From positions 1 through 33,440 of the forward strand of contig CAZSTO010000001.1 in the NCBI GenBank assembly GCA_964610005.1: a stretch of DNA of 33,440 nucleotides. The letters run 5' to 3'. A program made the position numbers and the translations under genes. A model generated the notes under the pieces. That model saw only the letters and a list, made by a program, of their open reading frames with translations. It was not told the origin of the DNA and ran no database searches. This document shows positions 13,028-31,124 of this stretch, piece after piece (positions within the stretch are counted from its first letter, which is position 1; each line of letters starts with the position of its first letter). Origin of the DNA: an uncultured Candidatus Saccharibacteria bacterium. GTDB lineage: Bacteria > Patescibacteriota > Minisyncoccia > Phycocordibacterales > CAIZLB01.

Positions 13028-13115
13028 ATATTTTTATATTTTATATTAATTAATAATAAAAACCATCTGTACTATCTTAAGTATGGAACGTATATAAAAG
13101 CTTTTTATTACAATT

Positions 13116-13152
13116 AAAAAGACCCCGGGCTCCCTGGAAGGGAACCCGAGGC
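13116..13152 (-). terminator. GC-rich intrinsic terminator of the PEP-CTERM gene
   Basis: Minus strand cctcgggttccc-ttcca-gggagcccgggg (12 bp including 2 G-U pairs) followed by tcttttt. Confidence 0.7.
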
Positions 13153-13171
13153 TTTCGGGTGTCGGCAGTCA

Positions 13172-13708
13172 TCAGTCCCTGCGTCGGCGCAGGAGAGTGA
13201 GTAGGCCGAGAGGTGTGATGAGGGCAACGGTCGGTTCGGGAATGGCGGTCGAGTTATACTGGACGTAGAACGATGTCTCTTTGCCGATATTATCGACGAT
13301 CTTCCCAGATGCCGAGAACTTGTCCGGGATGACGTCGATCACGGCTTGATGCACCGTGAATTCCCAGTATGACGTGCTCGCAAATGAATCCCGATACGGT
13401 GAGTTCAGCAGGATCTGCAGGTAGCCACCCAATGCGTCTGTCGAACGATACGTTTGTCCGACGACCCAGGGATTTCCGACGTTTGCGGTTCTGAGGAAGA
13501 CAGAGCCTCCGGCAGGACCGCTGAAGGTGAACCCGATGTTGTTGTTGGTCAATCCCGATGTTTCCACAGTGACTGGACCGGTGATGCTGTAGGTGTTACC
13601 CCCGGACGTATAGCCCGGGCCGGCAAACCACAGAATTGTGGCAGATTTGGCTGTCATTGAGACTGCCATGAAAATCGCGACAACGATTCGAACGAGGTGC
13701 TCTTTCAT
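13172..13708 (-). CDS. Secreted PEP-CTERM sorting-domain protein
   Basis: Signal peptide VVAIFMAVSMTAKS. C-terminus is IPEPTVALITPLGLLTLLRRRRD, that is PEP, a TM helix and an Arg cluster. Ends at TGA. One counted line (13201-13260) has 35 of 60 G+C. Confidence 0.8.
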   Translation of the reverse strand: MKEHLVRIVVAIFMAVSMTAKSATILWFAGPGYTSGGNTYSITGPVTVETSGLTNNNIGFTFSGPAGGSVFLRTANVGNPWVVGQTYRSTDALGGYLQILLNSPYRDSFASTSYWEFTVHQAVIDVIPDKFSASGKIVDNIGKETSFYVQYNSTAIPEPTVALITPLGLLTLLRRRRD

Positions 13709-15579: not shown

Positions 15580-16029
15580 TCAGACCTTCATCGTGAATTC
15601 GATTGGGCTAATCGTGAAAGAAGTTCCTTTTTCATTACGGTGAAATGTTGAGAAAGAGTGGTATAGGATACCAACTCGACGATCCTGGGTTTTTCCTGTC
15701 ACTGACCTGATGTAGGTGCAGAGACGAAGTGTTTCCAGGGAGCTAGTGGGGATGGTGGAAATCATCGCCTGAAGAGCCTTCGCAAAAAGGGTCTTCTCGT
15801 GAACTTCTTCCGGATCGTTTGGTTGCGAGCATCGATTGCTCAACAACTCCCTTGCAGAGTTGCAAATCGCCGCTTCTTCTTCGTCCGAAAAGGTAATCAG
15901 CATCTCTTCTCCGATTTTGCCGAAGTCGCGGTAAAAGATGATTGCACTCATCAACAAAACAGCGAAGCTGTCATTGATGGAGTCCATTGATTCTTGTTGT
16001 TTTAATTCCCCGTTGATATAGATATCCAT
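15580..16029 (-). CDS. Hypothetical protein, GC-rich cassette A (149 aa)
   Basis: Uninterrupted ORF ending in TGA, bracketed by a promoter/leader repeat and a terminator. Line 15781-15840 has 30 of 60 G+C. No family recognised. Confidence 0.6.
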   Translation of the reverse strand: MDIYINGELKQQESMDSINDSFAVLLMSAIIFYRDFGKIGEEMLITFSDEEEAAICNSARELLSNRCSQPNDPEEVHEKTLFAKALQAMISTIPTSSLETLRLCTYIRSVTGKTQDRRVGILYHSFSTFHRNEKGTSFTISPIEFTMKV

Positions 16030-16167: not shown

Positions 16168-16611
16168 TCATGACGGCATGACGTATTCACCGTCAACGAT
16201 TTGTCCATCGTGTTCCTTGGGGTAATAATTGTAAGGCAATAGAATCTGAAACACCTCCGGACCAGTTTTGATGGCCGCTCCGTTTTCAAATCGGGTTTGC
16301 CGAACGACAGTAAGTTGAGGTTGAGGATCTGGATGTCTATCCATATATCCAGAACCATAATCCAGGGATTCGATGAATTTGGTGTTGACCTCTTCTGCGA
16401 TTAAATGCATCAGTCTAGGATCATCGCCGCAACCCAATTCAGCGGCAAGGGAGGATAGTTCATCGGGGGCAAGTTCGATGATAACCATCTCGCCTCTGTT
16501 TTCGTTATAAAGAGCAAGATGAATCCGGAGAATTTCCATAAGTTTTGTGCCTCCATAAACATTGAATGGGCAGACTTCAGCTCCTGGAAAGGCTTGTGTT
16601 GTTGATTTCAT
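16168..16611 (-). CDS. Hypothetical protein, GC-rich cassette B (147 aa)
   Basis: ORF ending in TGA. Start is taken at MKSTTQ (ATG 16611) because the upstream codons of ORF 16168..16683 lie in the duplicated leader. No family recognised. Confidence 0.6.
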   Translation of the reverse strand: MKSTTQAFPGAEVCPFNVYGGTKLMEILRIHLALYNENRGEMVIIELAPDELSSLAAELGCGDDPRLMHLIAEEVNTKFIESLDYGSGYMDRHPDPQPQLTVVRQTRFENGAAIKTGPEVFQILLPYNYYPKEHDGQIVDGEYVMPS

Positions 16612-16631
16612 GACGTAGTGTTTGGTGTTAA

Positions 16632-16685
16632 GTTCTGGACCCTCGTTTCTTTTAAGGGGTCTGTTAAGTTGAAGTATAATCATTT
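16632..16685 (-). repeat. Leader/-10 repeat, copy B
   Basis: gttctggaccctcgtttcttttaaggggtctgttaagttgaagtataatcattt, near-identical to 16048-16101. Confidence 0.85.
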
Positions 16686-16700
16686 CACTCGATAAATCAA
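16673..16700 (-). promoter_or_regulatory. Possible promoter of cassette B
   Basis: On the minus strand: TTGATT (16700-16695), 16 nt, TATACT (16678-16673). Confidence 0.45.
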
Positions 16701-16709
16701 CATCCTATA

Positions 16710-16718
16710 TGTTATTAT
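16710..16718 (+). promoter_or_regulatory. Extended -10 box 7 nt before ATG 16726
   Basis: TG-t-TATTAT, then aaagaac, then ATG. Confidence 0.45.
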
Positions 16719-16725
16719 AAAGAAC

Positions 16726-17928
16726 ATGAGTGCCTCAAAATTTTTAAAAATAATATTAGTAATAATCGCTCTAATAGTCGCGTTTCTTGCAACACAAAGA
16801 GTTACTTCAAAAGATTTATTATCTTATTTCAAAGATATAAAACATAAGATAGAAGTAGATGCCTCAGCGACTACAACTGAAGAAAAAGTCGAGGCTCCTG
16901 TAGAAGAAAAGAAAATGTCTCATGTAAAGACACCTGAAAATGTTCGTGGTATATATGTTTCTGCAAACAGTTTCTTGTATAAACCATTTTTAGAAAGACT
17001 TGATAAGATGATAGAGGAAACAACTATAAACACAATAGTGGTTGATATAAAAGATGCACCTGGTGTTATAACTTATGATATTGGCATGCAACATCCTTGT
17101 ATACAGCCGCTTATTTCAAAAGAAGATTTAGAAGCAAAGCTTGATTATTATCATAAGAAAAATATTTATGTGATAGCACGTATAGCAGTTTTCCGTGATG
17201 AATGTTTTACAAAACAAAACTTAGATCTTGCGTCAAAGAAAGCTGACGGTACACCATGGAGAGATGGAAAAGGAAATTATTGGTTATCTCCAAGTAAAGA
17301 AAAAACCGCACAATATATAGTTGATCTTGCTAAAAATGTTTATGATAGAGGTTTTGATGAAATACAATTAGATTATGTGCGTTATCCTTCAGATGGTCAG
17401 ATGAATCTTTTAAGTTATGAATACAATGGGAATTTTACAGCTTCATCTACAGGTGCTGATAAAAGAAGACAGACTTTGGGAAATTTTCTAGCTTATGTTA
17501 GAAAAGGTTTAGAGGGTATACCTTTATCAGCTGATGTGTTTGGTATGGTCCTGACAAATACAGATGATTTAACTATAGGACAACATCTTGATGAATTTGT
17601 TCAACATGTAGATTATATCTCTGGCATGATTTATCCATCTCATTTTCCAAATAATTGGAATGGTATAAAGTTGCCAAATAAAGCACCATATCAAACTATA
17701 TATGATTCAACTAAGATGGGTTTGGATAGAGTTACAGCGACTCACGGAACTTCCACAGCTTATAAAGTGATGAGACCTTGGTTGCAAGATTTCTCAATAT
17801 TCGGAGTTGATTATAATGCACCTGAAGTAAAAGCTCAGATAAAAGCTTTGGATGATCTCGGTGTGAAAAGTTATTTGTTGTGGAATGCATCAAACAGATA
17901 TACACCTGGGGTTATTGATAGGGAGTAG
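16726..17928 (+). CDS. Membrane-anchored putative glycoside-hydrolase-like TIM-barrel protein (COG1306/DUF4015-like)
   Basis: N-terminal TM segment, VRGIYVS, TIVVDIKD and FDEIQLDYVRYP resemble that family. The call is made from memory of the family and not verified. Confidence 0.5.
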   Translation: MSASKFLKIILVIIALIVAFLATQRVTSKDLLSYFKDIKHKIEVDASATTTEEKVEAPVEEKKMSHVKTPENVRGIYVSANSFLYKPFLERLDKMIEETTINTIVVDIKDAPGVITYDIGMQHPCIQPLISKEDLEAKLDYYHKKNIYVIARIAVFRDECFTKQNLDLASKKADGTPWRDGKGNYWLSPSKEKTAQYIVDLAKNVYDRGFDEIQLDYVRYPSDGQMNLLSYEYNGNFTASSTGADKRRQTLGNFLAYVRKGLEGIPLSADVFGMVLTNTDDLTIGQHLDEFVQHVDYISGMIYPSHFPNNWNGIKLPNKAPYQTIYDSTKMGLDRVTATHGTSTAYKVMRPWLQDFSIFGVDYNAPEVKAQIKALDDLGVKSYLLWNASNRYTPGVIDRE

Positions 17929-17932
17929 TGGT

Positions 17933-17960
17933 TTGACAGATTTATCTGTTTTGTTAGAAT
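17933..17960 (+). promoter_or_regulatory. Near-consensus promoter pointing into the 3' end of MazF-like gene 1
   Basis: TTGACA (17933-17938), 16 nt, TAGAAT (17955-17960). Confidence 0.45.
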
Positions 17961-17966
17961 AAGGTC

Positions 17967-18062
17967 AATCTCTTTATGAGACACAATGGGTTATCCCACT
18001 TGCCAGGATCATAATGGTCCGGCTTAAATCATCTCCGTATAATGTCAATTATACGGTTTTGA
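17967..18062 (+). ncRNA. Candidate ~95-nt antisense RNA convergent with MazF-like gene 1
   Basis: The predicted start is about 7 nt after the -10. Internal hairpin near 18003-18022. Terminator ccgtataat (18035-18043) / attatacgg (18048-18056) plus TTTT (18057-18060) lies inside the last codons of the minus-strand CDS. Confidence 0.4.
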
Positions 18063-18457
18063 ATTTTTATGAAATCATTCATAGAAATATAACCTATATA
18101 TTTACTAAGCCTTTTTGTATCGAGTGCTCTTATCTGAGATATAATAGCTGATTGCTCAATGTCTTGTAATAATAGTTTTATATAATATTTATTATCTTTA
18201 TTTTTAGTACTTAGGGGTATACCCCAAAACATCTCGTTATTAAATTTTTTAAATATTAAAACAGGACGATGAAAGTTCTCGCCTTTACCATCTTGTTCGT
18301 ATCCGATATTTTCACCCCAAAAACACCAATAGACCTGACATTCATTAATGATTAGATTATTTCGTTTAGTTTTATTTATTATAATTTTATTTATGATCCA
18401 GGATATAAATTTTTTTGACATTAATACATCATACGATATGGGTGTTAAAATTTTCAT
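18029..18457 (-). CDS. PemK/MazF-family toxin-like protein, paralog 1, with no adjacent antitoxin ORF
   Basis: VYWCFWGENIGYEQDGKGENFHRPVLIF ... PLSTK ... SQIRALDTKRL fits the MazF fold pattern GD.W.....G.E..G.RP.l.l ... QiR..D..R. It ends at TGA. An alternative start is ATG 18421. Confidence 0.75.
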   Translation of the reverse strand: MKILTPISYDVLMSKKFISWIINKIIINKTKRNNLIINECQVYWCFWGENIGYEQDGKGENFHRPVLIFKKFNNEMFWGIPLSTKNKDNKYYIKLLLQDIEQSAIISQIRALDTKRLSKYIGYISMNDFIKIQNRIIDIIRR

Positions 18458-18502
18458 AAAGAAAATGTAAAGATTTTCTATCTTGATAAGGTGGTTGACA
18501 TC

Positions 18503-19717
18503 TTACAAGATCTTCACCTCAAACACCTTAGTCTCAGCCTCTTTTTCACCAATAATCACAACTTCTTTTATGTTATTTTTCTCAGCGATTTTCATAATAT
18601 CTCCAACTTTACGATTATCATAATTCACAGCCACATTTTTATTTTCTATTCTAAAATCACGAGCTACTATATTTGCATAATCAATAACTTCTTGTTGATC
18701 TGATATAACCCCGATCAAAGTATCTATACTATTTTCGTATTTAGGCAATAGATTTCTAGATTCTAAGAAATTTTGCATAGGCACATCGCCGATACCAAAG
18801 CCTATACCAGATATTTTCACATCATCTTTTACTGTTTCAAAAAGATCTATAAGATTTTCATAACGACCACCACCGAATAAAGCTCTGTTGTTGTTTGGAT
18901 CATTATCATAAACTTCAAAAACTATACCAGTATAATAATCAAAACCACGAACTATATCCTGATTAAATACAATCTTTATATTTTCTTTAGCACATTCATT
19001 GATAATTGTATTGATATAATCTAATTCTTTTTTAACTTCGGGAATGTTTATATCTTTGATATCGAGATATTCTTTGTCGGTGATCTTTTCATATTCTTTT
19101 GCGAATTCTTCTTTAGATATTTTATCTTTTCTATCTAATAATCTTTGAAAAGTTTTTCCTTCAGCTTCCGTAAATTCATAATAATGATTGTATACTGCAT
19201 TAAGTAGGGAACGAGAGTTTATGTATATAGTATAATCTTTTTCTTCGGCCCCGAAGTTTATCATGATATTATTTATCACTTTGAATATTTCTATATCATA
19301 AGCTTGATCATTTTTTGTATTCAATATATCAACATTCAATTGCCAAAACTCACGTAGTCTACCACGTTGGGGTCTTTCATATCGAAAACAGTTCGGTATT
19401 GAATAGTATCGTAATGGGAATGATAAATCTCTTTTTTTGGCTGCCACCATACGAGCAAGTGTCGGTGTCATCTCAGGACGAAGTGTAACCTCACGATCAC
19501 CACGGTCTATAAAAGTATATGTTTGACTGTTCACTATTTCTTCACTTGTTTTTGATTTATATATATCTGATTCTTCTAAAACTGAAGCATTATATTCTTG
19601 AAATCCAAAAGATTCTACGGATTTTCTCCATATTTTAAATATATGATTTTGTGCAAAATTATCTTCTGGGTAGAAGTCTCTTGTACCTTTATAATTTTCA
19701 GTTTTTAGTTTTTGCAT
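18503..19717 (-). CDS. hisS: Histidine--tRNA ligase
   Basis: GTRDFYPED, LRPEMTPTLARM and RYERPQRGRLREFWQLNVD are class II HisRS motifs. The start at ATG 19717 is supported by a -10 box 6 nt upstream. Confidence 0.9.
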   Translation of the reverse strand: MQKLKTENYKGTRDFYPEDNFAQNHIFKIWRKSVESFGFQEYNASVLEESDIYKSKTSEEIVNSQTYTFIDRGDREVTLRPEMTPTLARMVAAKKRDLSFPLRYYSIPNCFRYERPQRGRLREFWQLNVDILNTKNDQAYDIEIFKVINNIMINFGAEEKDYTIYINSRSLLNAVYNHYYEFTEAEGKTFQRLLDRKDKISKEEFAKEYEKITDKEYLDIKDINIPEVKKELDYINTIINECAKENIKIVFNQDIVRGFDYYTGIVFEVYDNDPNNNRALFGGGRYENLIDLFETVKDDVKISGIGFGIGDVPMQNFLESRNLLPKYENSIDTLIGVISDQQEVIDYANIVARDFRIENKNVAVNYDNRKVGDIMKIAEKNNIKEVVIIGEKEAETKVFEVKIL

Positions 19718-19723
19718 ATATAG

Positions 19724-19732
19724 AATATAGCA
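19724..19732 (-). promoter_or_regulatory. Extended -10 box 6 nt before the hisS ATG
   Basis: On the minus strand: TG-c-TATATT, then ctatat, then ATG (19717). Confidence 0.5.
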
Positions 19733-19785
19733 TATTTTAAGGGTTTTGTGTTTATACAATCTTTATGAGAATTTGAACATGAAAA

Positions 19786-19794
19786 TGTTTTAAT
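19786..19794 (+). promoter_or_regulatory. Extended -10 box 6 nt before the ATG of MazF-like gene 2
   Basis: TG-t-TTTAAT, then tttgct, then ATG at 19801. The 19-nt string atgttttaattttgctatg recurs at 24594-24612. Confidence 0.45.
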
Positions 19795-19800
19795 TTTGCT

Positions 19801-20274
19801 ATGGAAGATTGGGAATTTATAGAAAAATATAATAAATGGAATATAAAAAAGCAAAATATACATTTTTTAGACAATAGAGATATTTACTTTAAAGAGGGTG
19901 ATATCTGGTGGTGTTCTATTGGTTTAAATATAGGTGATGAATCATATGGAAAGGGTAGGGATTTTAGAAGACCTATATTAATATTTAAAAAATTATCAAA
20001 AGATTTATGTATAGCACTACCTTTGACCTCAAAACTTAAAAAAGGGACCTGGTTTGTTGATATTATTCTAAATAATCAGTCTAGATGTGTCATGTTGTAT
20101 CAGATTCGTGTACTGAATAAAAAAAGATTTTCTATAAAGATAGGTGAAATATGTGATGACGATTTCAATAAAGTAAAAAGAAAACTCGAGAATCTATTCG
20201 AGTTTTCATTAAATCGTCACTCGACAAATGTCGAGATCGAAAGGGTTGATGCGACTCTCAACCCTCAAAGGTGA
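19801..20274 (+). CDS. PemK/MazF-family toxin-like protein, paralog 2, with no adjacent antitoxin ORF
   Basis: GDIWWCSIGLNIGDESYGKGRDFRRPILIF ... PLTSK ... YQIRVLNKKRF. It carries a 22-aa tail absent from paralog 1, encoded by hairpin-rich DNA. It ends at TGA. Confidence 0.75.
   Translation: MEDWEFIEKYNKWNIKKQNIHFLDNRDIYFKEGDIWWCSIGLNIGDESYGKGRDFRRPILIFKKLSKDLCIALPLTSKLKKGTWFVDIILNNQSRCVMLYQIRVLNKKRFSIKIGEICDDDFNKVKRKLENLFEFSLNRHSTNVEIERVDATLNPQR
20175..20272 (-). ncRNA. Candidate ~98-nt antisense RNA covering the last ~32 codons of MazF-like gene 2
   Basis: Three perfect hairpins: 20242-20265 (8 bp), 20220-20235, and 20180-20207 (10 bp). The last is followed on the minus strand by TTTTT (20175-20179). 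The predicted start coincides with the toxin stop codon. Confidence 0.5.
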
Positions 20275-20278
20275 TTAT

Positions 20279-20306
20279 ATTTTAGCAAATGGATAATCTT
20301 TGTCAA
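20279..20306 (-). promoter_or_regulatory. Near-consensus promoter of the antisense RNA
   Basis: On the minus strand: TTGACA (20306-20301), 16 nt, TAAAAT (20284-20279). Confidence 0.5.
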
Positions 20307-20309
20307 ATC

Positions 20310-20318
20310 TGTTATACT
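20310..20318 (+). promoter_or_regulatory. Extended -10 box driving the structured RNA upstream of mod
   Basis: TG-t-TATACT, placed back-to-back with the antisense-RNA promoter. Confidence 0.4.
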
Positions 20319-20324
20319 AAGCAA

Positions 20325-20456
20325 GTCGCCACAATCAAATATAAGTAACACTACAAGTGTATACCTGCAGTCGTGTATAGTGAGGGGTGCCTCGATGCAC
20401 ATGACTGCAGGCCTTGCGCTTGTATTGATTGTGGCGACCATCGGGCATCCCTTTTT
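20325..20456 (+). ncRNA. GC-rich fold-back RNA or structured 5' leader of the mod gene
   Basis: 5' gtcgccacaatcaa (20325-20338) pairs with ttgattgtggcgac (20425-20438), extendable to about 20 bp. There is an inner 9-13 bp stem cctgcagtc (20364-20372) / gactgcagg (20403-20411), an apical gagg/cctc hairpin and a T5 run at 20452-20456. Confidence 0.45.
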
Positions 20457-20501
20457 GTCGTTTAATAATTAATATAAAGGTGCTTGGTCCGATGAACATA
20501 G

Positions 20502-22184
20502 ATGTCGCCTATGTCATTAGAGGAATTAAGTAGAGAAGATCTTTTGACTCGTGTAAAAGAGTTGGAAGCTAGATTAAAGAAAAATCAAAAATATGGTTTA
20601 GTATGGGAATCTAAAGAAGAACAAGTTGTTTTAGACTGTAAAGATAAATATCCTATATTAAAGCGTGTTGAAGATAGAAGTATTAGAGGAGGTGTTGGTC
20701 CAATGAATTATTTGATTGAGGGTGATAATTATCATGCTTTGAAGATCTTGCAATATACACATAAGGGTAAGATTGATGTGATTTATATAGATCCTCCGTA
20801 TAATACAGGGAATAAGGATTTTATCTATAATGATGATTTTGTTGATAAAGAAGATGGTTATAGACACAGTAAATGGCTGTCATTTATGGAGAGAAGGTTG
20901 AAGTTGGCAAAAGAATTATTGAAGGATACGGGGGTTATATTTATAAGTATAGATGATAATGAACAAGCACAGTTGAAATTATTGTGTGATGGGGTTTTTG
21001 GCGAGAGGAATTTTATAAGCTTATTTCCTAGATTGACAGTTAAAGGAGGTAAAACACAAAGCTTATTTAATACAAGTAACATAGATTATGTATATGTTTA
21101 TTCTAAGGATATTAATAAATCTCGTTTTAATAAATTATTAGTTAAAGATGATAATGCTTTTAAATATAAAGATAAATATTTTGATGAGAGAGGCTTTTAT
21201 CATACTAAACAATCTTTAGATAGTGTTAGTTTAGGGTATGTAAAATCTTTAGATTATCCAATAAATCATGAAGGTGTAACCTATTATCCTGGTGGTGTTA
21301 TTGAAAATAATGGATATAGATGGACTTGGTCTAAAGATAAGTTGGATTTCGCAATAAAAAATGATTTTGTGGAATTTAAAAATGGAAGAATATGGCCTAA
21401 AAAATATTTATTAGCTAGTATTGAAAAAGATAAAAATGGTTATTATATTAAATATGAAGATAGGGTAAAAAATTATTCACAATTAACTTTTATTGAAAAT
21501 CTATATTCAAATACAAATGGAACAAATACCTTAAGAGAGTTAGATGTTACGGATTTTAATAATGCAAAACCTGTTGATTTAATAAAAACAATTTGTGAAA
21601 TGTCTGGATCTAAATCCTCCATCATCCTCGATTTCTTCGCTGGCTCCGGGACCACAGGACATGCCGTACTTGAACTCAATAAACAAGATGGTGGTAATCG
21701 TCAATTCATACTTGTAACAAACAATGGTGACGAAAAGAGTGAGCATAAGATCGCTGAAAATATAACTTATGAAAGATTAAAAAGAGTCATGAGGGGTTAC
21801 ACAAACAAGAAAGGTGAAAAGGTAGAAGGTCTGGGTGGTAATCTTGATTATATGCGTTGTGAGTTTATAGATAAGATTGATCATCAAGATAGTATGAGGC
21901 TCAAGATCACAGAAAATTGTCTAGATACAATAATGTTTAAAGAGGGTAATGATAAAATCATAAAAAACACAGATGATTATACTATCACCAGTAGTACTGT
22001 TCTAAATATGGATAATATGACAGCTATATATAAAACCTGGAATGATGAAAATATAGATAAATTTAAAAAAGATATAGAGAAAATAAATAGACCGGTAAAC
22101 GTGTATTTAAATCCATTCATTGATAAAGATGAATTTAATTATTTGGATAAGGTTAATATTAAAAATATTCAAGACATAATATAA
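20502..22184 (+). CDS. mod: Type III restriction-modification methyltransferase (Mod)
   Basis: DPPYNTG (motif IV) lies N-terminal to FFAGSGTTGHAV (motif I), with a variable region between. The res gene follows after 4 nt. Confidence 0.85.
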   Translation: MSPMSLEELSREDLLTRVKELEARLKKNQKYGLVWESKEEQVVLDCKDKYPILKRVEDRSIRGGVGPMNYLIEGDNYHALKILQYTHKGKIDVIYIDPPYNTGNKDFIYNDDFVDKEDGYRHSKWLSFMERRLKLAKELLKDTGVIFISIDDNEQAQLKLLCDGVFGERNFISLFPRLTVKGGKTQSLFNTSNIDYVYVYSKDINKSRFNKLLVKDDNAFKYKDKYFDERGFYHTKQSLDSVSLGYVKSLDYPINHEGVTYYPGGVIENNGYRWTWSKDKLDFAIKNDFVEFKNGRIWPKKYLLASIEKDKNGYYIKYEDRVKNYSQLTFIENLYSNTNGTNTLRELDVTDFNNAKPVDLIKTICEMSGSKSSIILDFFAGSGTTGHAVLELNKQDGGNRQFILVTNNGDEKSEHKIAENITYERLKRVMRGYTNKKGEKVEGLGGNLDYMRCEFIDKIDHQDSMRLKITENCLDTIMFKEGNDKIIKNTDDYTITSSTVLNMDNMTAIYKTWNDENIDKFKKDIEKINRPVNVYLNPFIDKDEFNYLDKVNIKNIQDII

Positions 22185-22188
22185 ATCT

Positions 22189-24507
22189 ATGAAATTTACA
22201 CTTAAAAATTATCAAGAAAAAGCTGTTAATTCTCTAAAAGACAGAGTTTATAATTTTCTTTCATTTAATGATTCAGAAAAGAGAATAATAACCTTTAAAG
22301 CACCTACAGGTTCAGGAAAAACTGTTATGATGGCTTCTTTTATAGAGAATTTGATAGAATCAAATAAAGATTTAAAGAATATAGATTTTACATTTTTATG
22401 GTTATCTATAGGTACAGGTGATTTACATAATCAGAGTAAAAAGTCTCTAGAGAAAAATATCGGTGATAATATAAAAATACAAAGTATAGATGAGGTATAT
22501 GGTACATAAAAAAATGAATTATTAAAGGATTCGGTAATGGTTTCTAATTGGGAAAAAGTGTGGACCAAAAATAAAAAAACAGGCGATTGGAAAAGTATTG
22601 CCATGAGAGATGGTGATTATATAAATTTTCGAGAAATATTAAATAATACAAATAGTATTGGTAGAAAGATTGTATTGATAATAGATGAATCATACATAGC
22701 TACCGATGCTGCTAGAGGTAGAGAGATTGTTGATTTGATAAATCCTAATATCGTAATAGAAGTATCGGCTACTCCGAATCTAAGGTTATCAGGTAAAGAT
22801 ATTATAGATAATAAAGGTTGGATTGAAGAGATAAATCCACAAGATGTTATAGATGAAGAAATGATAAAGGATCAAATAATAGTTAATTCTGATTTTGTTT
22901 TATTTAAAAAAGATGACAGCGATCAAACTGTCTTAAGAAGTGCTATTAATAAACGTGATGAATTGGTTAATCTCTATAAAGAATATAATATAAATGTAAA
23001 CCCACTTTTATTAATACAATTACCAAATAGCAGAGATGGTGAATCTGCTATGGAAATGGTCTTGGATTTTTTAGAGAAAGAAAAAGGGGTAAAACAAGGC
23101 GATGATAGATTAGCTATATGGTTAAGTGAAAAAGATATTAGTGATAGAAATATAGATAACATAAGTAAAAATAATTCCAAACAAGAATATCTCATATTTA
23201 AACAAGCCATAGCAACGGGTTGGGATTGTCCCAGGGCTCAAATATTATTAAAATTCAGAGAAGTTAAAAGTGATGTATTCGAAATACAAGTTTTAGGTAG
23301 GATATTAAGGACTCCTGAGCAAAAGCATTATTCTATAGAAGCTCTAAATAAGGCTTATGTGTATGTGAATTCTGATGAAATCAGTTTTAAAATAGAAGAT
23401 TATAATGCAAAGATTTTGGGTGATTTACCATCTATAAGAAAAAGGGATTATAAAGATATAAAATTGAATTCTTTTTATCAAGAACGTAAAGACTATCAAG
23501 ATATAAAATCAGAATTTAAAAAGGTATTATCGGATTGCTTTATAGATAAGTTGAATTTGATAGAAGGGGACTATAATAAAAATATAAAAAAATTAGAAAA
23601 AGAAGGTTGGAAATTTGAATTGGAAGATATATATCATAAAGTTATTTCAGATATTAGTGTTGATGTAAAAACAATAGATCAATATTATCTGCCCGTAGAA
23701 GATGATACAAAAGAAACTTTGAATATAAGTGATAGACAAATAGAGATAATATCTAGAAATATATTTAAAAAGCTGATGAACCCTTTTACTAATATTGCCA
23801 GGTCTATACCAGTGATGAATCTTGCCTGGTATGCTTTCTGTCGAAATATTTTTGGGGAAAATCTAATGAAAAAAGATTTTATAAGCTCTCAGACTTTACT
23901 TATAATGAATTTGCAAAAGGTTCAGCAGATATTTATAGAGGCTGTAGAAAAATATTCGAAAATCAAAAAGAAAAAACTTCAAGCAGAAAGTGAACATTAT
24001 AGTATATTTGAAATACCTAAGATTGATTATTTTAATTCTGAATTAGTTGATAATATAAATTATGATAAGTATATTTTAGATAATTGTTATTTGTATAAAG
24101 ATAGATCTAAACCAGAAAGAGATTTTGAGAATTTGTTGAATAATTCCAAAAAAGTAAAATGGTGGTATAAAAACGGCGTAAATCGTGATGATTATTTTGG
24201 TATTAAATATGAATATGATAATAAAGACGGTAAAGAAACTATTCACACCTTTTATCCTGATTATGTGGTTAAATTTAATGATGAAAAAATAGGTATATTT
24301 GAAACAAAGGCAGAGTCAGATCCAGATGCTCACACTAAAACGAAGGTAAAAGCTGAGGAATTATACAAATATATACAAAAAGAGAATAAAATAGGTAAAA
24401 AACTTCTTGGGGGAATTGTTGTATTTAAGGAAAAAGAAAATAAATGGAGAATACAAAATAAAAAAGAATATTCACTAACAGAAGGCTGGGAAGAGTTAAT
24501 TTTTTAA
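22189..24507 (+). pseudogene. res: Type III restriction enzyme Res subunit interrupted by an in-frame TAA
   Basis: KAPTGSGKT (helicase motif I), LIIDESY (motif II-like) and a C-terminal PD-(D/E)xK-like YPDYVV...GIFETKA. TAA at 22507-22509 is in the same frame as both halves (106 + 656 aa). Confidence 0.75.
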
Positions 24508-30329: not shown

Positions 30330-31046
30330 ATGAGTTTACATCCAATAACACAAGCTATATACGAATTCACTGAGATATTTAAAGAGCTTGGTTTTGTTAT
30401 GTATAATGGTCCGGAGATAGAAACAGAGTGGAAAAACTTTGATGCTTTAAGGGTCGCGAAAGATCATCCTGCTCGTGATGCACAAGATACTTTTTGGTTG
30501 CCTTCAAAATATCAAAGAGATGAAAATAATATTTTACCCAGAACCCACACGTCAGGTGCTCAGATAAAATGCATGAATGAGAATTTGCCTCCTATAAAGA
30601 TTATTTCAGCAGGTAAGGTTTTTAGAAATGAAGCTACCGATGCTACCCATGAAGCAGAGTTCCATCAACTTGAGGGTTTATATATAGATAAAGATGTTGA
30701 TATGAATGATTTGAAAAACACTTTAACTTTTGTTTTTAAGAAATTTTTTGGTGATGATATACAAGTTAGATTTAGAGCTAGTTATTTTCCATTCGTTAAA
30801 CCAGGTTTTGAGGTTGATATATATTGGAAAAATAAATGGTTAGAAGTTTGTGGTGGAGGAATGGTTCATCCGGAGGTTATAGAAAATGGTTTGAAAGATA
30901 ATTTAAAGATGAATAAAGATGAGATAAAAGGTTTTAAGGGTTTTGCTTTTGGTATGGGGTTGGAGAGACTTGTGATGTTGAAATATGGTTTAGATGATAT
31001 ACGTGATTTGTCTACAGGGGATGTGAGATTTAGTCGATGGTTTTAA
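30330..31046 (+). CDS. pheS: Phenylalanine--tRNA ligase alpha subunit, catalytic core only
   Basis: FDALRVAKDHPARDAQDTFW, FRNEATDATHEAEFHQLEG and GFAFGMGLERL are class II motifs. 238 aa, with no N-terminal coiled-coil region. Confidence 0.9.
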   Translation: MSLHPITQAIYEFTEIFKELGFVMYNGPEIETEWKNFDALRVAKDHPARDAQDTFWLPSKYQRDENNILPRTHTSGAQIKCMNENLPPIKIISAGKVFRNEATDATHEAEFHQLEGLYIDKDVDMNDLKNTLTFVFKKFFGDDIQVRFRASYFPFVKPGFEVDIYWKNKWLEVCGGGMVHPEVIENGLKDNLKMNKDEIKGFKGFAFGMGLERLVMLKYGLDDIRDLSTGDVRFSRWF

Positions 31047-31098: not shown

Positions 31099-31124
31099 CA
31101 GATTTAGTAATAAGAAAAATAAAT

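What the first reader, a model, noticed from the sequence alone, without database searches (positions are those of the whole stretch)
17933..18062. Mirror-image antisense unit at the 3' end of MazF/PemK-like paralog 1
The plus strand has TTGACA (17933-17938), 16 nt, TAGAAT (17955-17960). About 95 nt later comes a perfect 9-bp hairpin ccgtataat/attatacgg (18035-18056) followed by TTTT. This hairpin sits inside the final codons (QNRIIDIIRR) of the minus-strand toxin-like CDS. The -35 box, spacer length, RNA length and terminator placement match paralog 2, but the sequences are unrelated. That pattern points to conserved architecture, not a recent duplication. In both paralogs the C-terminal codons form a perfect hairpin whose U-tract is antisense to the toxin gene.
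Basis: partly seen in the sequence, partly recalled or inferred. Interest (0 to 1): 0.7.

Follow-up and report, generated by a model that had tools for sequence, protein, structure and literature searches.

The report
Convergent small RNA partnering MazF toxin
A strongly promoted, roughly 94-base folded small RNA gene lies tail-to-tail with a MazF-type RNA-cutting toxin gene that has no protein antidote; the pairing recurs in dozens of related bacteria and the RNA has been detected experimentally in a Campylobacter homologue, so it is most likely the toxin's antidote.

Summary
The motifs are at the stated coordinates. This promoter and its paralog-2 twin are the only two extended -10 (TG) sites scoring at least 11/12 in the 33 kb window (0.38 expected).

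In 80 homologous Patescibacteria loci, a convergent promoter sits 30-120 nt past the stop of 48/80 MazF-like genes, against 7/303 other ORFs (p=6e-32). In 73/80 loci a short hairpin starts about 12 nt after the -10 box, followed by a second hairpin. Both hairpins covary.

In the window's own clade, the hairpin inside the codons N-R-I-I-D-I-I-R shows three compensatory, synonymous pair states. The downstream neighbour is often co-directional, so the hairpin is not just a neighbour's terminator. No protein antitoxin is conserved nearby.

A 38%-identical homologue on Campylobacter jejuni pVir has a published, Northern-confirmed 77-nt sRNA, CJpv3. Its TSS (31119) is 1 nt from my prediction.

Most likely this is an RNA-antitoxin module. 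Whether the RNA pairs with the toxin mRNA (type I-like) or binds the protein (type III-like) is unresolved. A pVir type I system (cjrA/cjpT) is published, but I could not confirm that it is this locus.

The parts
17933..17960 (+). Near-consensus sigma-70-type promoter of the small RNA: TTGACA, 16 nt, TGtTAGAAT (extended -10).
   Evidence: It is one of only two TG-extended sites scoring at least 11/12 in the window. The equivalent promoter is found at 48/80 homologous loci.
17967..18060 (+). Predicted small RNA, about 94 nt. The TSS is inferred at A17967 (7th nt after the -10 box). The 3' end is in the U-tract 18057-18060.
   Evidence: Fold z = -4.96. The TSS position is inferred by analogy with the mapped pVir TSS, which is also the 7th nt after TATAAT. 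No transcript data exist for this organism.
17969..17981 (+). Extra 5' leader hairpin (UCUC-UUUAU-GAGA), an insertion. L004 also carries an extra 5' leader hairpin. L047 and L063 likewise have a lengthened leader, whose fold was not examined.
17981..17998 (+). Conserved 5' motif: tail ACACAAU plus hairpin P1 (U-GGG-UUAU-CCC-A, 17987-17998).
   Evidence: Model R3 matches window 17982-18026 (+) at 45.6 bits, E = 8e-13. P1 is 100% paired in 13 clade members, including a GGA/UCC double change.
18002..18023 (+). Hairpin P2 (GCC-A-GGAUC / GGUCC-GGC).
   Evidence: Six of 8 P2 pairs show changes on both sides within the clade. Further compensatory variants occur in L098, L103 and L104.
18035..18060 (+). 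Hairpin P3, the intrinsic terminator (9 bp, loop GUCA), plus UUUU. It lies inside toxin codons N-R-I-I-D-I-I-R.
   Evidence: One stem position has three compensatory, synonymous states (CGT/ATA, CGA/ATT, CGG/ATC) across W1, L003/L101 and L096/L098/L103.
18029..18457 (-). MazF/PemK-family toxin gene, paralog 1. The likely true start is M13 at 18421 (MSKKF...).
   Evidence: Pfam PF02452, E = 1.6e-9. Homologues start at M13. AF2 pLDDT is 83.6, and the best PDB fold matches are MazF structures.
19801..20274 (+). MazF/PemK-family paralog 2, 34% identical to paralog 1. Its last ~24 codons read through its partner sRNA gene.
20279..20306 (-). Mirror promoter of the paralog-2 small RNA: TTGACA, 16 nt, TG-extended TAAAAT.
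20175..20272 (-). Predicted paralog-2 small RNA, about 97 nt, with three hairpins. The terminator is at 20180-20207, followed by UUUUU.
   Evidence: Fold z = -5.05. In the L081 homologue all three hairpins covary while the linkers are conserved.

Best explanation
The unit is the RNA half of a two-gene toxin/RNA-antitoxin module. A very strong promoter (17933-17960) makes a ~94-nt folded small RNA: a leader hairpin, the tail ACAAU plus P1, then P2, then terminator P3. The RNA is transcribed towards a MazF-family endoribonuclease gene that has no protein antitoxin.

The RNA's last ~32 nt are complementary to the toxin's stop codon and final 9-10 codons. The toxin strand has no terminator of its own, so the toxin mRNA probably reads through the whole sRNA gene and would be fully complementary to it.

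I commit to this mechanism: the abundant sRNA pairs with the 3' end or 3' UTR of the toxin mRNA and keeps toxin synthesis off. It would do so through duplex-dependent decay, helped by head-on transcription. If the sRNA is lost, the RNase is released. This is type I-like.

Shown:
- the motifs;
- their family-wide conservation;
- covariation of the RNA structure;
- absence of a conserved protein antitoxin;
- expression of the equivalent sRNA in C. jejuni pVir.

Inferred:
- transcription in this organism;
- toxicity of the protein;
- neutralisation by the RNA;
- the pairing mechanism.

My sub-probabilities are: real sRNA gene functionally tied to the toxin, ~0.9; it is the antitoxin, ~0.75; it acts mainly by antisense pairing, ~0.5.
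For: Promoter and fold
- The promoter and terminator are at the stated coordinates.
- They are the only two TG-extended sites at 11/12 or better in the window, and both are convergent on the two MazF paralogs.
- The RNAs fold with z about -5.

Conservation
- A convergent promoter occurs at 48/80 family loci against 7/303 other ORFs, Fisher p = 6e-32.
- P1 starts 12 nt after the -10 box in nearly all loci.
- Covariation: 95.7% of cells paired against 73% when shuffled, 9/10 P2 pairs with double changes, and slid controls at 23-49%. In the window's own clade: 94% paired, 7/12 pairs with double changes, 0/500 shuffles as high.
- G-U pairs outnumber A-C mismatches 29 to 9 on the convergent strand. 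Reverse-strand model hits score 20 bits or less against 42-62 bits.
- P3 has three synonymous compensatory states.

Context
- The downstream neighbour is co-directional in 45 loci and convergent in 26.
- No conserved small ORF lies next to the toxin genes, and upstream gaps are often under 100 nt.
- A sense-strand terminator-like site occurs in only 5/68 loci.
- The toxin has a MazF fold with invariant Arg64 and near-invariant Ser83/Thr84, which align to the MazF catalytic Arg/Thr.

Experimental homologue
- pVir CJJ81176_pVir0047 is 38% identical.
- It has the convergent sRNA CJpv3 (31119 to 31043, 77 nt, Northern-positive).
- The sRNA TSS step height is 16164, against 28 for the toxin TSS.
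- An antisense sRNA CjrA is cited as a validated type I antitoxin on pVir.
Against: - There are no transcript or toxicity data for this organism.
- Among loci with a clear terminator, about 40% of the sRNAs end at or before the stop codon. Pairing then depends on an inferred read-through of the toxin mRNA.
- A perfectly complementary cis-antisense RNA needs no conserved fold. Yet the 5' tail, P1 and P2 are under selection and carry UUCG/GNRA tetraloops, which are poor kissing loops. That fits protein binding better.
- The tail motif differs between toxin clades: ACAAAU against UUUUU/AUUAUU.
- Intact orphan sRNA copies exist without a toxin ORF.
- One clade member (L104) has an A-C mismatch on the sRNA strand where the sense strand would have G-U.
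- I could not read Shen et al. 2016, so I cannot confirm that cjpT is the MazF-like pVir0047. pVir also has a 41-aa hydrophobic ORF facing sRNA CJpv2, which is an alternative candidate.
Confidence: 0.5

Rival explanations
1. Type III-like RNA antitoxin. The folded sRNA (single-stranded 5' tail plus P1/P2) binds the MazF-like protein directly and blocks its RNA-binding groove, as a pseudo-substrate. The antisense position would be incidental, or a second layer of control.
For: - Sequence and structure of the tail, P1 and P2 are conserved and covary across toxins that are only ~40% identical.
- The loops are stable UUCG/GNRA tetraloops.
- The tail motif changes with toxin clade.
- Short-form sRNAs do not overlap the CDS at all.
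- Intact orphan sRNA copies exist.
- There is no cognate-specific pairing with the toxin 5' region.
- Precedent from established knowledge: type III toxins ToxN/AbiQ share the Kid/MazF fold, and MazE inhibits MazF by occupying its RNA groove.
Against: - There is no tandem-repeat RNA array and no same-strand RNA-terminator-toxin layout.
- The toxin is PF02452, and none of the 50 best PDB fold matches listed is ToxN; all are MazF-family toxin structures.
- The only cited experimental classification of a pVir RNA antitoxin is type I.
- Convergent placement is kept in essentially every locus. A purely trans-acting RNA would not require that.
Confidence: 0.27
2. The sRNA is real but is not an antitoxin. 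It could be a transcriptional roadblock or insulator that stops toxin read-through into neighbours. It could be a substrate or sensor RNA of the RNase, for example in phage defence. Or it could regulate other genes in trans.
For: - A very strong convergent promoter sits at the boundary with housekeeping genes such as tRNA synthetases.
- The modules lie next to a type III restriction-modification system in the window and between terminase and portal genes in a Campylobacter prophage.
- Orphan copies exist.
Against: - A conserved MazF-type catalytic core with no other candidate antitoxin would be hard to maintain without a neutraliser.
- An insulator needs no conserved P1/P2 fold or fixed 12-nt spacing.
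- The sRNA:toxin TSS ratio of about 580:1 on pVir is typical of an antitoxin.
Confidence: 0.13
3. There is no sRNA gene. The hairpin merely terminates the upstream plus-strand DUF4015 gene (16726..17928), and the promoter match is a chance hit in AT-rich DNA.
For: - The DUF4015 gene ends 5 nt before the -35 box, and its transcript would reach the same hairpin.
- AT-rich DNA gives many weak promoter-like hits: 49 found against 47.7 expected at 9/12 or better.
Against: - The same promoter-RNA-hairpin unit follows homologous toxin genes whatever the neighbour. That includes co-directional neighbours in the window's own clade.
- The enrichment is p = 6e-32.
- The structure covaries on the convergent strand.
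- A homologue's TSS has been mapped experimentally.
Confidence: 0.03

Closest known systems
C. jejuni pVir locus CJJ81176_pVir0047 with sRNA CJpv3 (Dugar et al. 2013, PMC3656092); possibly the CjrA/CjpT type I system of Shen et al. 2016
   Same: - The toxin is homologous: 38% identity over 117 aa, including the N-terminal helix.
- No adjacent protein antitoxin gene is annotated.
- A convergent TG-extended promoter lies just past the stop.
- The sRNA is structured, 77 nt, and ends at the stop codon.
- The TSS is the 7th nt after the -10 box, and the RNA is far more abundant than the toxin mRNA.
   Different: - The RNA sequences are unrelated, and the Patescibacteria models do not match it.
- The pVir RNA lacks the tail plus 3-bp P1 motif.
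- It is plasmid-borne rather than chromosomal.
- I could not verify that CjpT is this protein.
Type I toxin-antitoxin systems with convergent, 3'-overlapping antisense RNAs (B. subtilis txpA/RatA and bsrG/SR4; E. faecalis par fst/RNA II)
   Same: - A cis-encoded sRNA is made from a strong promoter and overlaps the toxin's 3' end.
- The terminator is shared, and in many family members it is bidirectional (AAAA-hairpin-TTTT).
- There is no protein antitoxin.
   Different: - The toxin is a ~130-aa MazF-fold RNase, not a small hydrophobic peptide.
- The sRNA 5' domain has a conserved fold.
- Many members have no overlap with the CDS.
- There is no par-like complementarity to the toxin 5' region.
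Type III toxin-antitoxin systems (ToxIN, CptIN, TenpIN, AbiQ/antiQ)
   Same: - The toxin is an RNase of the Kid/MazF-like fold, paired with a structured RNA and no protein antitoxin.
- The genomic context is defence-related.
   Different: - The RNA is a single unit with its own promoter on the opposite strand, not a tandem-repeat array upstream of the toxin.
- The toxin belongs to PF02452, not the ToxN family.
Canonical type II MazEF/PemIK
   Same: - The toxin family matches (Pfam above the curated cutoff; MazF fold; catalytic Arg and Ser/Thr).
   Different: - There is no MazE/PemI gene.
- The toxin has an extra N-terminal helix with invariant Trp20 and Lys24.
aMEF antisense RNA of E. coli mazEF (PMC8749433)
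   Same: - An antisense RNA is associated with a MazF toxin locus.
   Different: - By its abstract, aMEF fine-tunes a complete type II mazEF operon and stimulates its expression.
- Here there is no MazE, and the RNA is a conserved, dedicated gene.

Membership tests
MazF/PemK toxin family (PF02452) | Sequence match to the family profile above the curated cutoff | tested here: met
   Paralog 1 scores 38.4 bits and paralog 2 scores 45.8 bits, against a cutoff of 23.1. The NCBIfam E. coli MazF equivalog gives only a weak match, 17-20 bits against a cutoff of 120.
MazF/PemK toxin family (PF02452) | MazF/Kid/CcdB SH3-like barrel fold | tested here: met
   The AF2 model has pLDDT 83.6. The top 50 PDB matches are all MazF-family toxin structures (MazF, EndoA/YdcE, MoxT), with target TM-scores of 0.65-0.80.
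MazF/PemK toxin family (PF02452) | Catalytic Arg and Thr/Ser conserved | tested here: met
   R64 is invariant, and S83/T84 are at least 90% conserved. In the profile alignment they align to the VRPV Arg and the AITG Thr of S. aureus MazF. The catalytic role comes from published MazF work, e.g. Arg28/Thr51 in the PMC8086154 abstract.
MazF/PemK toxin family (PF02452) | Adjacent MazE/PemI-type protein antitoxin (type II organisation) | tested here: not met
   No conserved small ORF lies within 450 nt on either side in 82 loci. Upstream gaps to large genes are often under 100 nt.
Type I TA (cis-antisense RNA antitoxin) | RNA gene on the opposite strand whose transcript overlaps the toxin transcript | tested here: met
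   The predicted RNA overlaps the stop codon and 9-10 codons, 32 nt in all. In short-form members the overlap depends on toxin mRNA read-through, which is inferred from the lack of sense terminators in 63/68 loci.
Type I TA (cis-antisense RNA antitoxin) | The RNA is actually transcribed | tested here: inconclusive
   No data exist for this organism. In the pVir homologue the TSS and a Northern blot are published.
Type I TA (cis-antisense RNA antitoxin) | The RNA represses toxin mRNA translation or stability by base pairing, and the toxin is growth-inhibitory | not testable with these tools
   This needs expression experiments.
Type I TA (cis-antisense RNA antitoxin) | Small hydrophobic membrane-peptide toxin (typical, not universal) | tested here: not met
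   The protein is a 130-142-aa soluble MazF-fold protein.
Type III TA (ToxIN-like) | Tandem-repeat RNA array upstream of the toxin on the same strand, separated by a terminator | tested here: not met
   The RNA is a single-copy unit with its own promoter, downstream of the toxin and convergent to it.
Type III TA (ToxIN-like) | Toxin of the ToxN/AbiQ/CptN/TenpN families | tested here: not met
   Pfam assigns PF02452 only. None of the 50 best fold matches listed is ToxN. There is no PADLOC match.
Type III TA (ToxIN-like) | The RNA binds and inhibits the toxin protein | not testable with these tools
   This needs EMSA or co-purification and an RNase assay.
Any Rfam RNA family (including the pemK RNA motif, recalled from memory) | Covariance-model match | tested here: not met
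   There are no gathering-score hits in the window. Nothing relevant appears at E up to 5 in 17850-20520 or in 12 homologous loci.
pVir0047/CJpv3-type module | Homologous toxin plus a convergent sRNA starting just past the stop codon | tested here: met
   RNA sequence homology is not detectable.

The most novel reading that the evidence does not exclude
A large, mostly Patescibacteria-borne branch of the MazF family (about 1,900 clusters at 50% identity) has replaced the MazE protein with a dedicated folded small RNA. The RNA neutralises the RNase by direct binding of its conserved 5' tail and hairpins. That would be a functional bridge between type II MazEF and type III ToxIN systems, with the antisense placement serving as a secondary control.
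Probability: 0.27. Interest if true: 0.85.

Novelty: new variant of a known kind. Interest (0 to 1): 0.62.

Why it matters
MazF is the textbook type II toxin and is defined by its protein antitoxin, MazE. This branch of the family consistently lacks MazE. It carries a conserved, structured, very strongly promoted convergent small RNA instead.

The branch is large: 1,897 clusters at E of 1e-10 or better, and 556 of 600 scanned matches in species-representative genomes.

If the RNA is the antitoxin, three things follow:
- MazF toxins span more than one TA 'type'.
- The many 'orphan' PemK/MazF genes annotated as type II in Patescibacteria and Campylobacterota are mis-classified.
- Patescibacteria, whose regulatory RNAs are almost unknown, gain a widespread sRNA family with clear promoter, TSS and structure predictions.

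The type I versus type III question becomes directly testable with a simple recoding experiment. A cultured host with a complete genome carries a module (Minisyncoccus archaeiphilus, L057), and the C. jejuni pVir homologue is genetically tractable.

Tried and rejected
- **Known RNA family.** Rfam gathering and E-value scans of the window and 12 loci found nothing.
- **Known defence system.** PADLOC gave no match.
- **Hidden protein antitoxin or peptide.** No conserved small ORF flanks the toxin genes. The only small clusters are the RNA gene read as an ORF. The 13-codon ATG ORF inside the window RNA is not conserved, because most members have ACG at that position.
- **par-like mechanism** (sRNA 5' end pairing with the toxin 5' UTR or start). 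Cognate and non-cognate duplex energies and shared k-mers are indistinguishable.
- **Neighbour's terminator.** Rejected on neighbour orientation.
- **One alignment of all 74 RNAs.** MAFFT plus RNAalifold gave no structure because the arms were mis-registered. I replaced it with seed-and-iterate covariance models.
- **One model for all clades.** R2 and R3 do not cross-detect each other's clades, the paralog-2 clade or the Campylobacterota RNAs.
- **Literature.** Searches for MazF plus an RNA antitoxin in Patescibacteria found nothing. Shen et al. 2016 could not be opened, so the identity of cjpT stays open.
- **tRNA/tmRNA.** None in the window.

Full report
**1. The observation**

I read window 16600-18800 directly.
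- TTGACA is at 17933-17938, followed by a 16-nt spacer and then TAGAAT at 17955-17960.
- A TG lies at 17952-17953, so this is an extended -10 promoter.
- CCGTATAAT (18035-18043) and ATTATACGG (18048-18056) form a perfect 9-bp stem around the loop GTCA. TTTTGAATTTTT follows.
- The minus-strand ORF 18029..18457 ends QNRIIDIIRR*. The stem is encoded by AAC CGT ATA ATT GAC ATT ATA CGG.

The mechanical scan lists both features. Weak promoter-like sites are not enriched in this AT-rich DNA: 49 found against 47.7 expected at 9/12 or better. Strong ones are rare. The whole 33 kb has three sites at 11/12 or better. The only two with TG are this one and its mirror at the 3' end of the second MazF-like gene (minus strand, 20306..20279). 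A Markov model expects 0.38. The two predicted RNAs fold far better than shuffles, with z = -4.96 and -5.05.

**2. The proteins**

- Both ORFs match Pfam PemK_toxin above the curated cutoff.
- They are 34% identical to each other.
- The best solved relatives are S. aureus and B. subtilis MazF.
- An AlphaFold model (pLDDT 83.6) matches MazF structures in the PDB and adds an N-terminal helix.
- Arg64 is invariant and Ser83/Thr84 nearly so. They align to the MazF catalytic Arg/Thr.
- Homologues start at the window ORF's Met13.
- PADLOC gave no match.
- Neither paralog has a MazE-like neighbour. Paralog 1 follows hisS after 45 nt, and paralog 2 is divergent from hisS.

**3. The family test**

The protein has 198 close database relatives, almost all from Patescibacteria. 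A full profile search finds 1,897 clusters at E of 1e-10 or better. I fetched 80 homologous loci from species-representative genomes and analysed the DNA after each stop codon.

- A convergent promoter at 10/12 or better lies 30-120 nt past the stop in 48/80 MazF-like genes. It does so for 7/303 other ORFs in the same loci, Fisher p = 6e-32.
- The typical form is TTGACA-16-TG-n-TAnnnT, with the -10 box ending 50-70 nt after the stop.
- In 73/80 loci a short hairpin (P1) begins 12 nt after the -10 box in nearly all cases, preceded by the tail A(C/U)AAA(U/C).
- The P1 stem varies: GGC-UUCG-GCC, GGG-UUAU-CCC, UCC-UUCG-GGA, GGG-GAAA-CCC and UGCC-ACAC-GGCA.
- A second hairpin (P2) follows, with a free sequence and mostly GNRA/UUCG loops.
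- The downstream neighbour is co-directional with the toxin in 45 loci and convergent in 26. The hairpins are therefore not simply neighbours' terminators.

**4. RNA structure statistics**

One alignment of all RNAs failed. I therefore built a covariance model from eight sequences and iterated it.

- On 46 matches, 95.7% of cells pair, against 73% in shuffles and 23-49% with slid partners. Nine of ten P2 pairs show changes on both sides.
- All confident matches (E below 0.01) lie on the strand convergent to the toxin. They include extra copies beside second and third MazF-like genes in L012, L020 and L033.
- G-U pairs outnumber A-C mismatches 29 to 9 on that strand.
- A separate model for the window's own clade matches window 17982-18026 (+) at 45.6 bits. 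Reverse-strand matches score 20 bits or less.
- In that clade 94% of cells pair, 7/12 pairs have double changes, and 0/500 shuffles reach the observed value.

These alignments are fitted to the model, which favours the structure. The slid-partner controls and the raw sequences show the same picture.

**5. The hairpin inside the codons**

I fetched eight more loci of the window's clade. They keep the same promoter, ACAAAUGGGUUAUCCC, P2 and a terminator hairpin inside N-R-I-I-D-I-I-R.

One stem position takes three Watson-Crick states: T-A in the window, A-T in L003/L101, and G-C in L096/L098/L103. All arise from synonymous third-position changes: Arg CGT/CGA/CGG paired with Ile ATA/ATT/ATC. This shows selection on the RNA structure over and above the protein sequence.

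In several of these loci (L096, L098, L099, L104) the downstream gene is co-directional. That rules out the neighbour's-terminator explanation.

Across the family there are two forms:
- Short sRNAs (44-61 nt) end at the stop codon.
- Long sRNAs (69-111 nt) have a third hairpin in the last codons.

Both window units are long forms. A terminator-like site on the toxin strand is present in only 5/68 loci, so toxin transcripts probably run through the sRNA gene.

**6. Paralog 2**

Fifteen metagenomic relatives of paralog 2 also carry a convergent promoter and a structured RNA.
- The closest, L081, has the same three hairpins, all covarying, with conserved linkers.
- Others have a U-rich tail plus a GGG-GUAA-CCC hairpin.
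- Its closest fetched relatives (L081-L083, L087) stop right after the terminator hairpin. The window ORF instead has a unique 24-aa read-through tail.

**7. Outside Patescibacteria, and experimental evidence**

tblastn found homologues on Campylobacter, Helicobacter and Nitratiruptor plasmids and in Campylobacter CJIE4 prophages. All four that I inspected have a convergent promoter, TG-extended in three of them, and a structured RNA ending at or inside the last codons.

For C. jejuni 81-176 pVir (CDS 30634-31038, 38% identical) I predicted a minus-strand TSS near 31118. Dugar et al. 2013 list sRNA CJpv3 on pVir: minus strand, 31119 to 31043, 77 nt, detected by Northern blot. Their TSS table gives a step height of 16164 at 31119, the highest among the pVir TSS rows I read. 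The toxin TSS at 30608 scores 28.

Two papers cite Shen et al. 2016 for a validated type I system on pVir, cjrA (RNA) and cjpT. I could not open that paper. pVir also has a 41-aa hydrophobic ORF facing sRNA CJpv2. So cjpT = pVir0047 is about even odds, not a fact.

**8. Mechanism**

The evidence supports a dedicated sRNA gene tied to a MazF-type RNase that lacks a protein antitoxin. An RNA antitoxin is the natural reading.

For antisense action (type I-like):
- the invariably convergent cis position;
- the overlap with the CDS in long forms;
- shared or bidirectional terminators;
- the lack of toxin-strand terminators;
- the cited type I classification on pVir.

For direct protein binding (type III-like):
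- the conserved fold, tail and tetraloops, which perfect complementarity does not require;
- clade-specific tails;
- short forms without CDS overlap;
- orphan sRNA copies.

I found no par-like pairing with the toxin 5' region, no conserved peptide or protein partner and no Rfam family. I favour antisense action at about 0.5 and direct binding at about 0.27. One recoding experiment would separate them.

**9. Novelty**

RNA-antitoxin modules are a known kind. A homologous toxin/sRNA pair is at least partly documented in C. jejuni.

What appears new is the following:
- This is a large, mainly Patescibacteria branch of the MazF family.
- It has a conserved, covarying sRNA and a defined promoter-to-hairpin geometry.
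- These genes are currently annotated as type II toxins.

No paper in the searchable library describes this. That library omits most subscription journals.

Noticed in passing
window 20325-20438 (+): A ~115-nt near-perfect long hairpin. The outer stem is GTCGCCACAATCAA/TTGATTGTGGCGAC and the inner stem is CCTGCAGTC/GACTGCAGG. It lies between the paralog-2 sRNA promoter and the type III R-M mod gene. MFE is -68.5 kcal/mol, with z = -8.0 on the plus strand and -5.9 on the minus strand. It is single copy in the window and in the fetched loci, and has no Rfam match.
   Followed up: partly
window 13081-13620; ORF 13172..13708 (-): A stretch of 52-67% GC in a ~29% GC contig. The 178-aa ORF has a signal peptide and a PEP-CTERM-like C-terminus (IPEPTVALITPLGLLTLLRRRRD), and no Pfam hit. 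It looks foreign (horizontal transfer or a chimeric assembly).
   Followed up: partly
window 15580..16029 (-) and 16168..16683 (-): Two protein-like ORFs of 149 and 171 aa at ~40% GC. They have no Pfam match and no Rfam match.
   Followed up: no
window 18029-20306: The two toxin/sRNA modules flank hisS as a mirror image: sRNA1 rightward, tox1 leftward, hisS leftward, tox2 rightward, sRNA2 leftward. In other genomes the modules also sit beside aminoacyl-tRNA synthetase genes: TyrRS and a class-I Glu/Gln-type synthetase (tRNA-synt_1c) in L099/L100, and the latter in L096.
   Followed up: no
window 20502-24507 (+): A type III restriction-modification system directly follows paralog 2. The mod gene carries N6_N4_Mtase. 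The res gene appears split into 22189-22509 (ResIII) and 22537-24507 (no Pfam hit).
   Followed up: no
window 18421-18457 (-): Homologues start at Met13 of the window ORF. A TATGAT box (18433-18428) lies 6 nt upstream of that ATG with no Shine-Dalgarno sequence, so the toxin mRNA may be leaderless.
   Followed up: no
L064 4216-4257 (-), L063 3808-3854 (-), L020 1416-1860: Two intact sRNA copies (with P1 and P2; the L064 copy also shows a -10 box and terminator) have no adjacent MazF-like ORF. One further copy sits beside a MazF-like gene with an in-frame stop. These may be remnants of decayed modules or anti-addiction RNAs.
   Followed up: partly
L109 (Campylobacter prophage CJIE4-3, KF751795.1 31945-32379): A family member annotated 'toxin MazF' sits between the terminase large subunit and portal genes. 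It has a convergent TG-extended promoter and a terminator hairpin inside its last codons (SPHMAG*). This is a prophage-borne version of the module.
   Followed up: partly
L110 (pVir NC_008770.1 25268-25609): The Northern-positive sRNA CJpv2 (TSS 25268, plus strand) faces a 41-aa hydrophobic ORF (pVir0034). This may be a classical type I pair, and it is an alternative candidate for the published cjrA/cjpT.
   Followed up: partly
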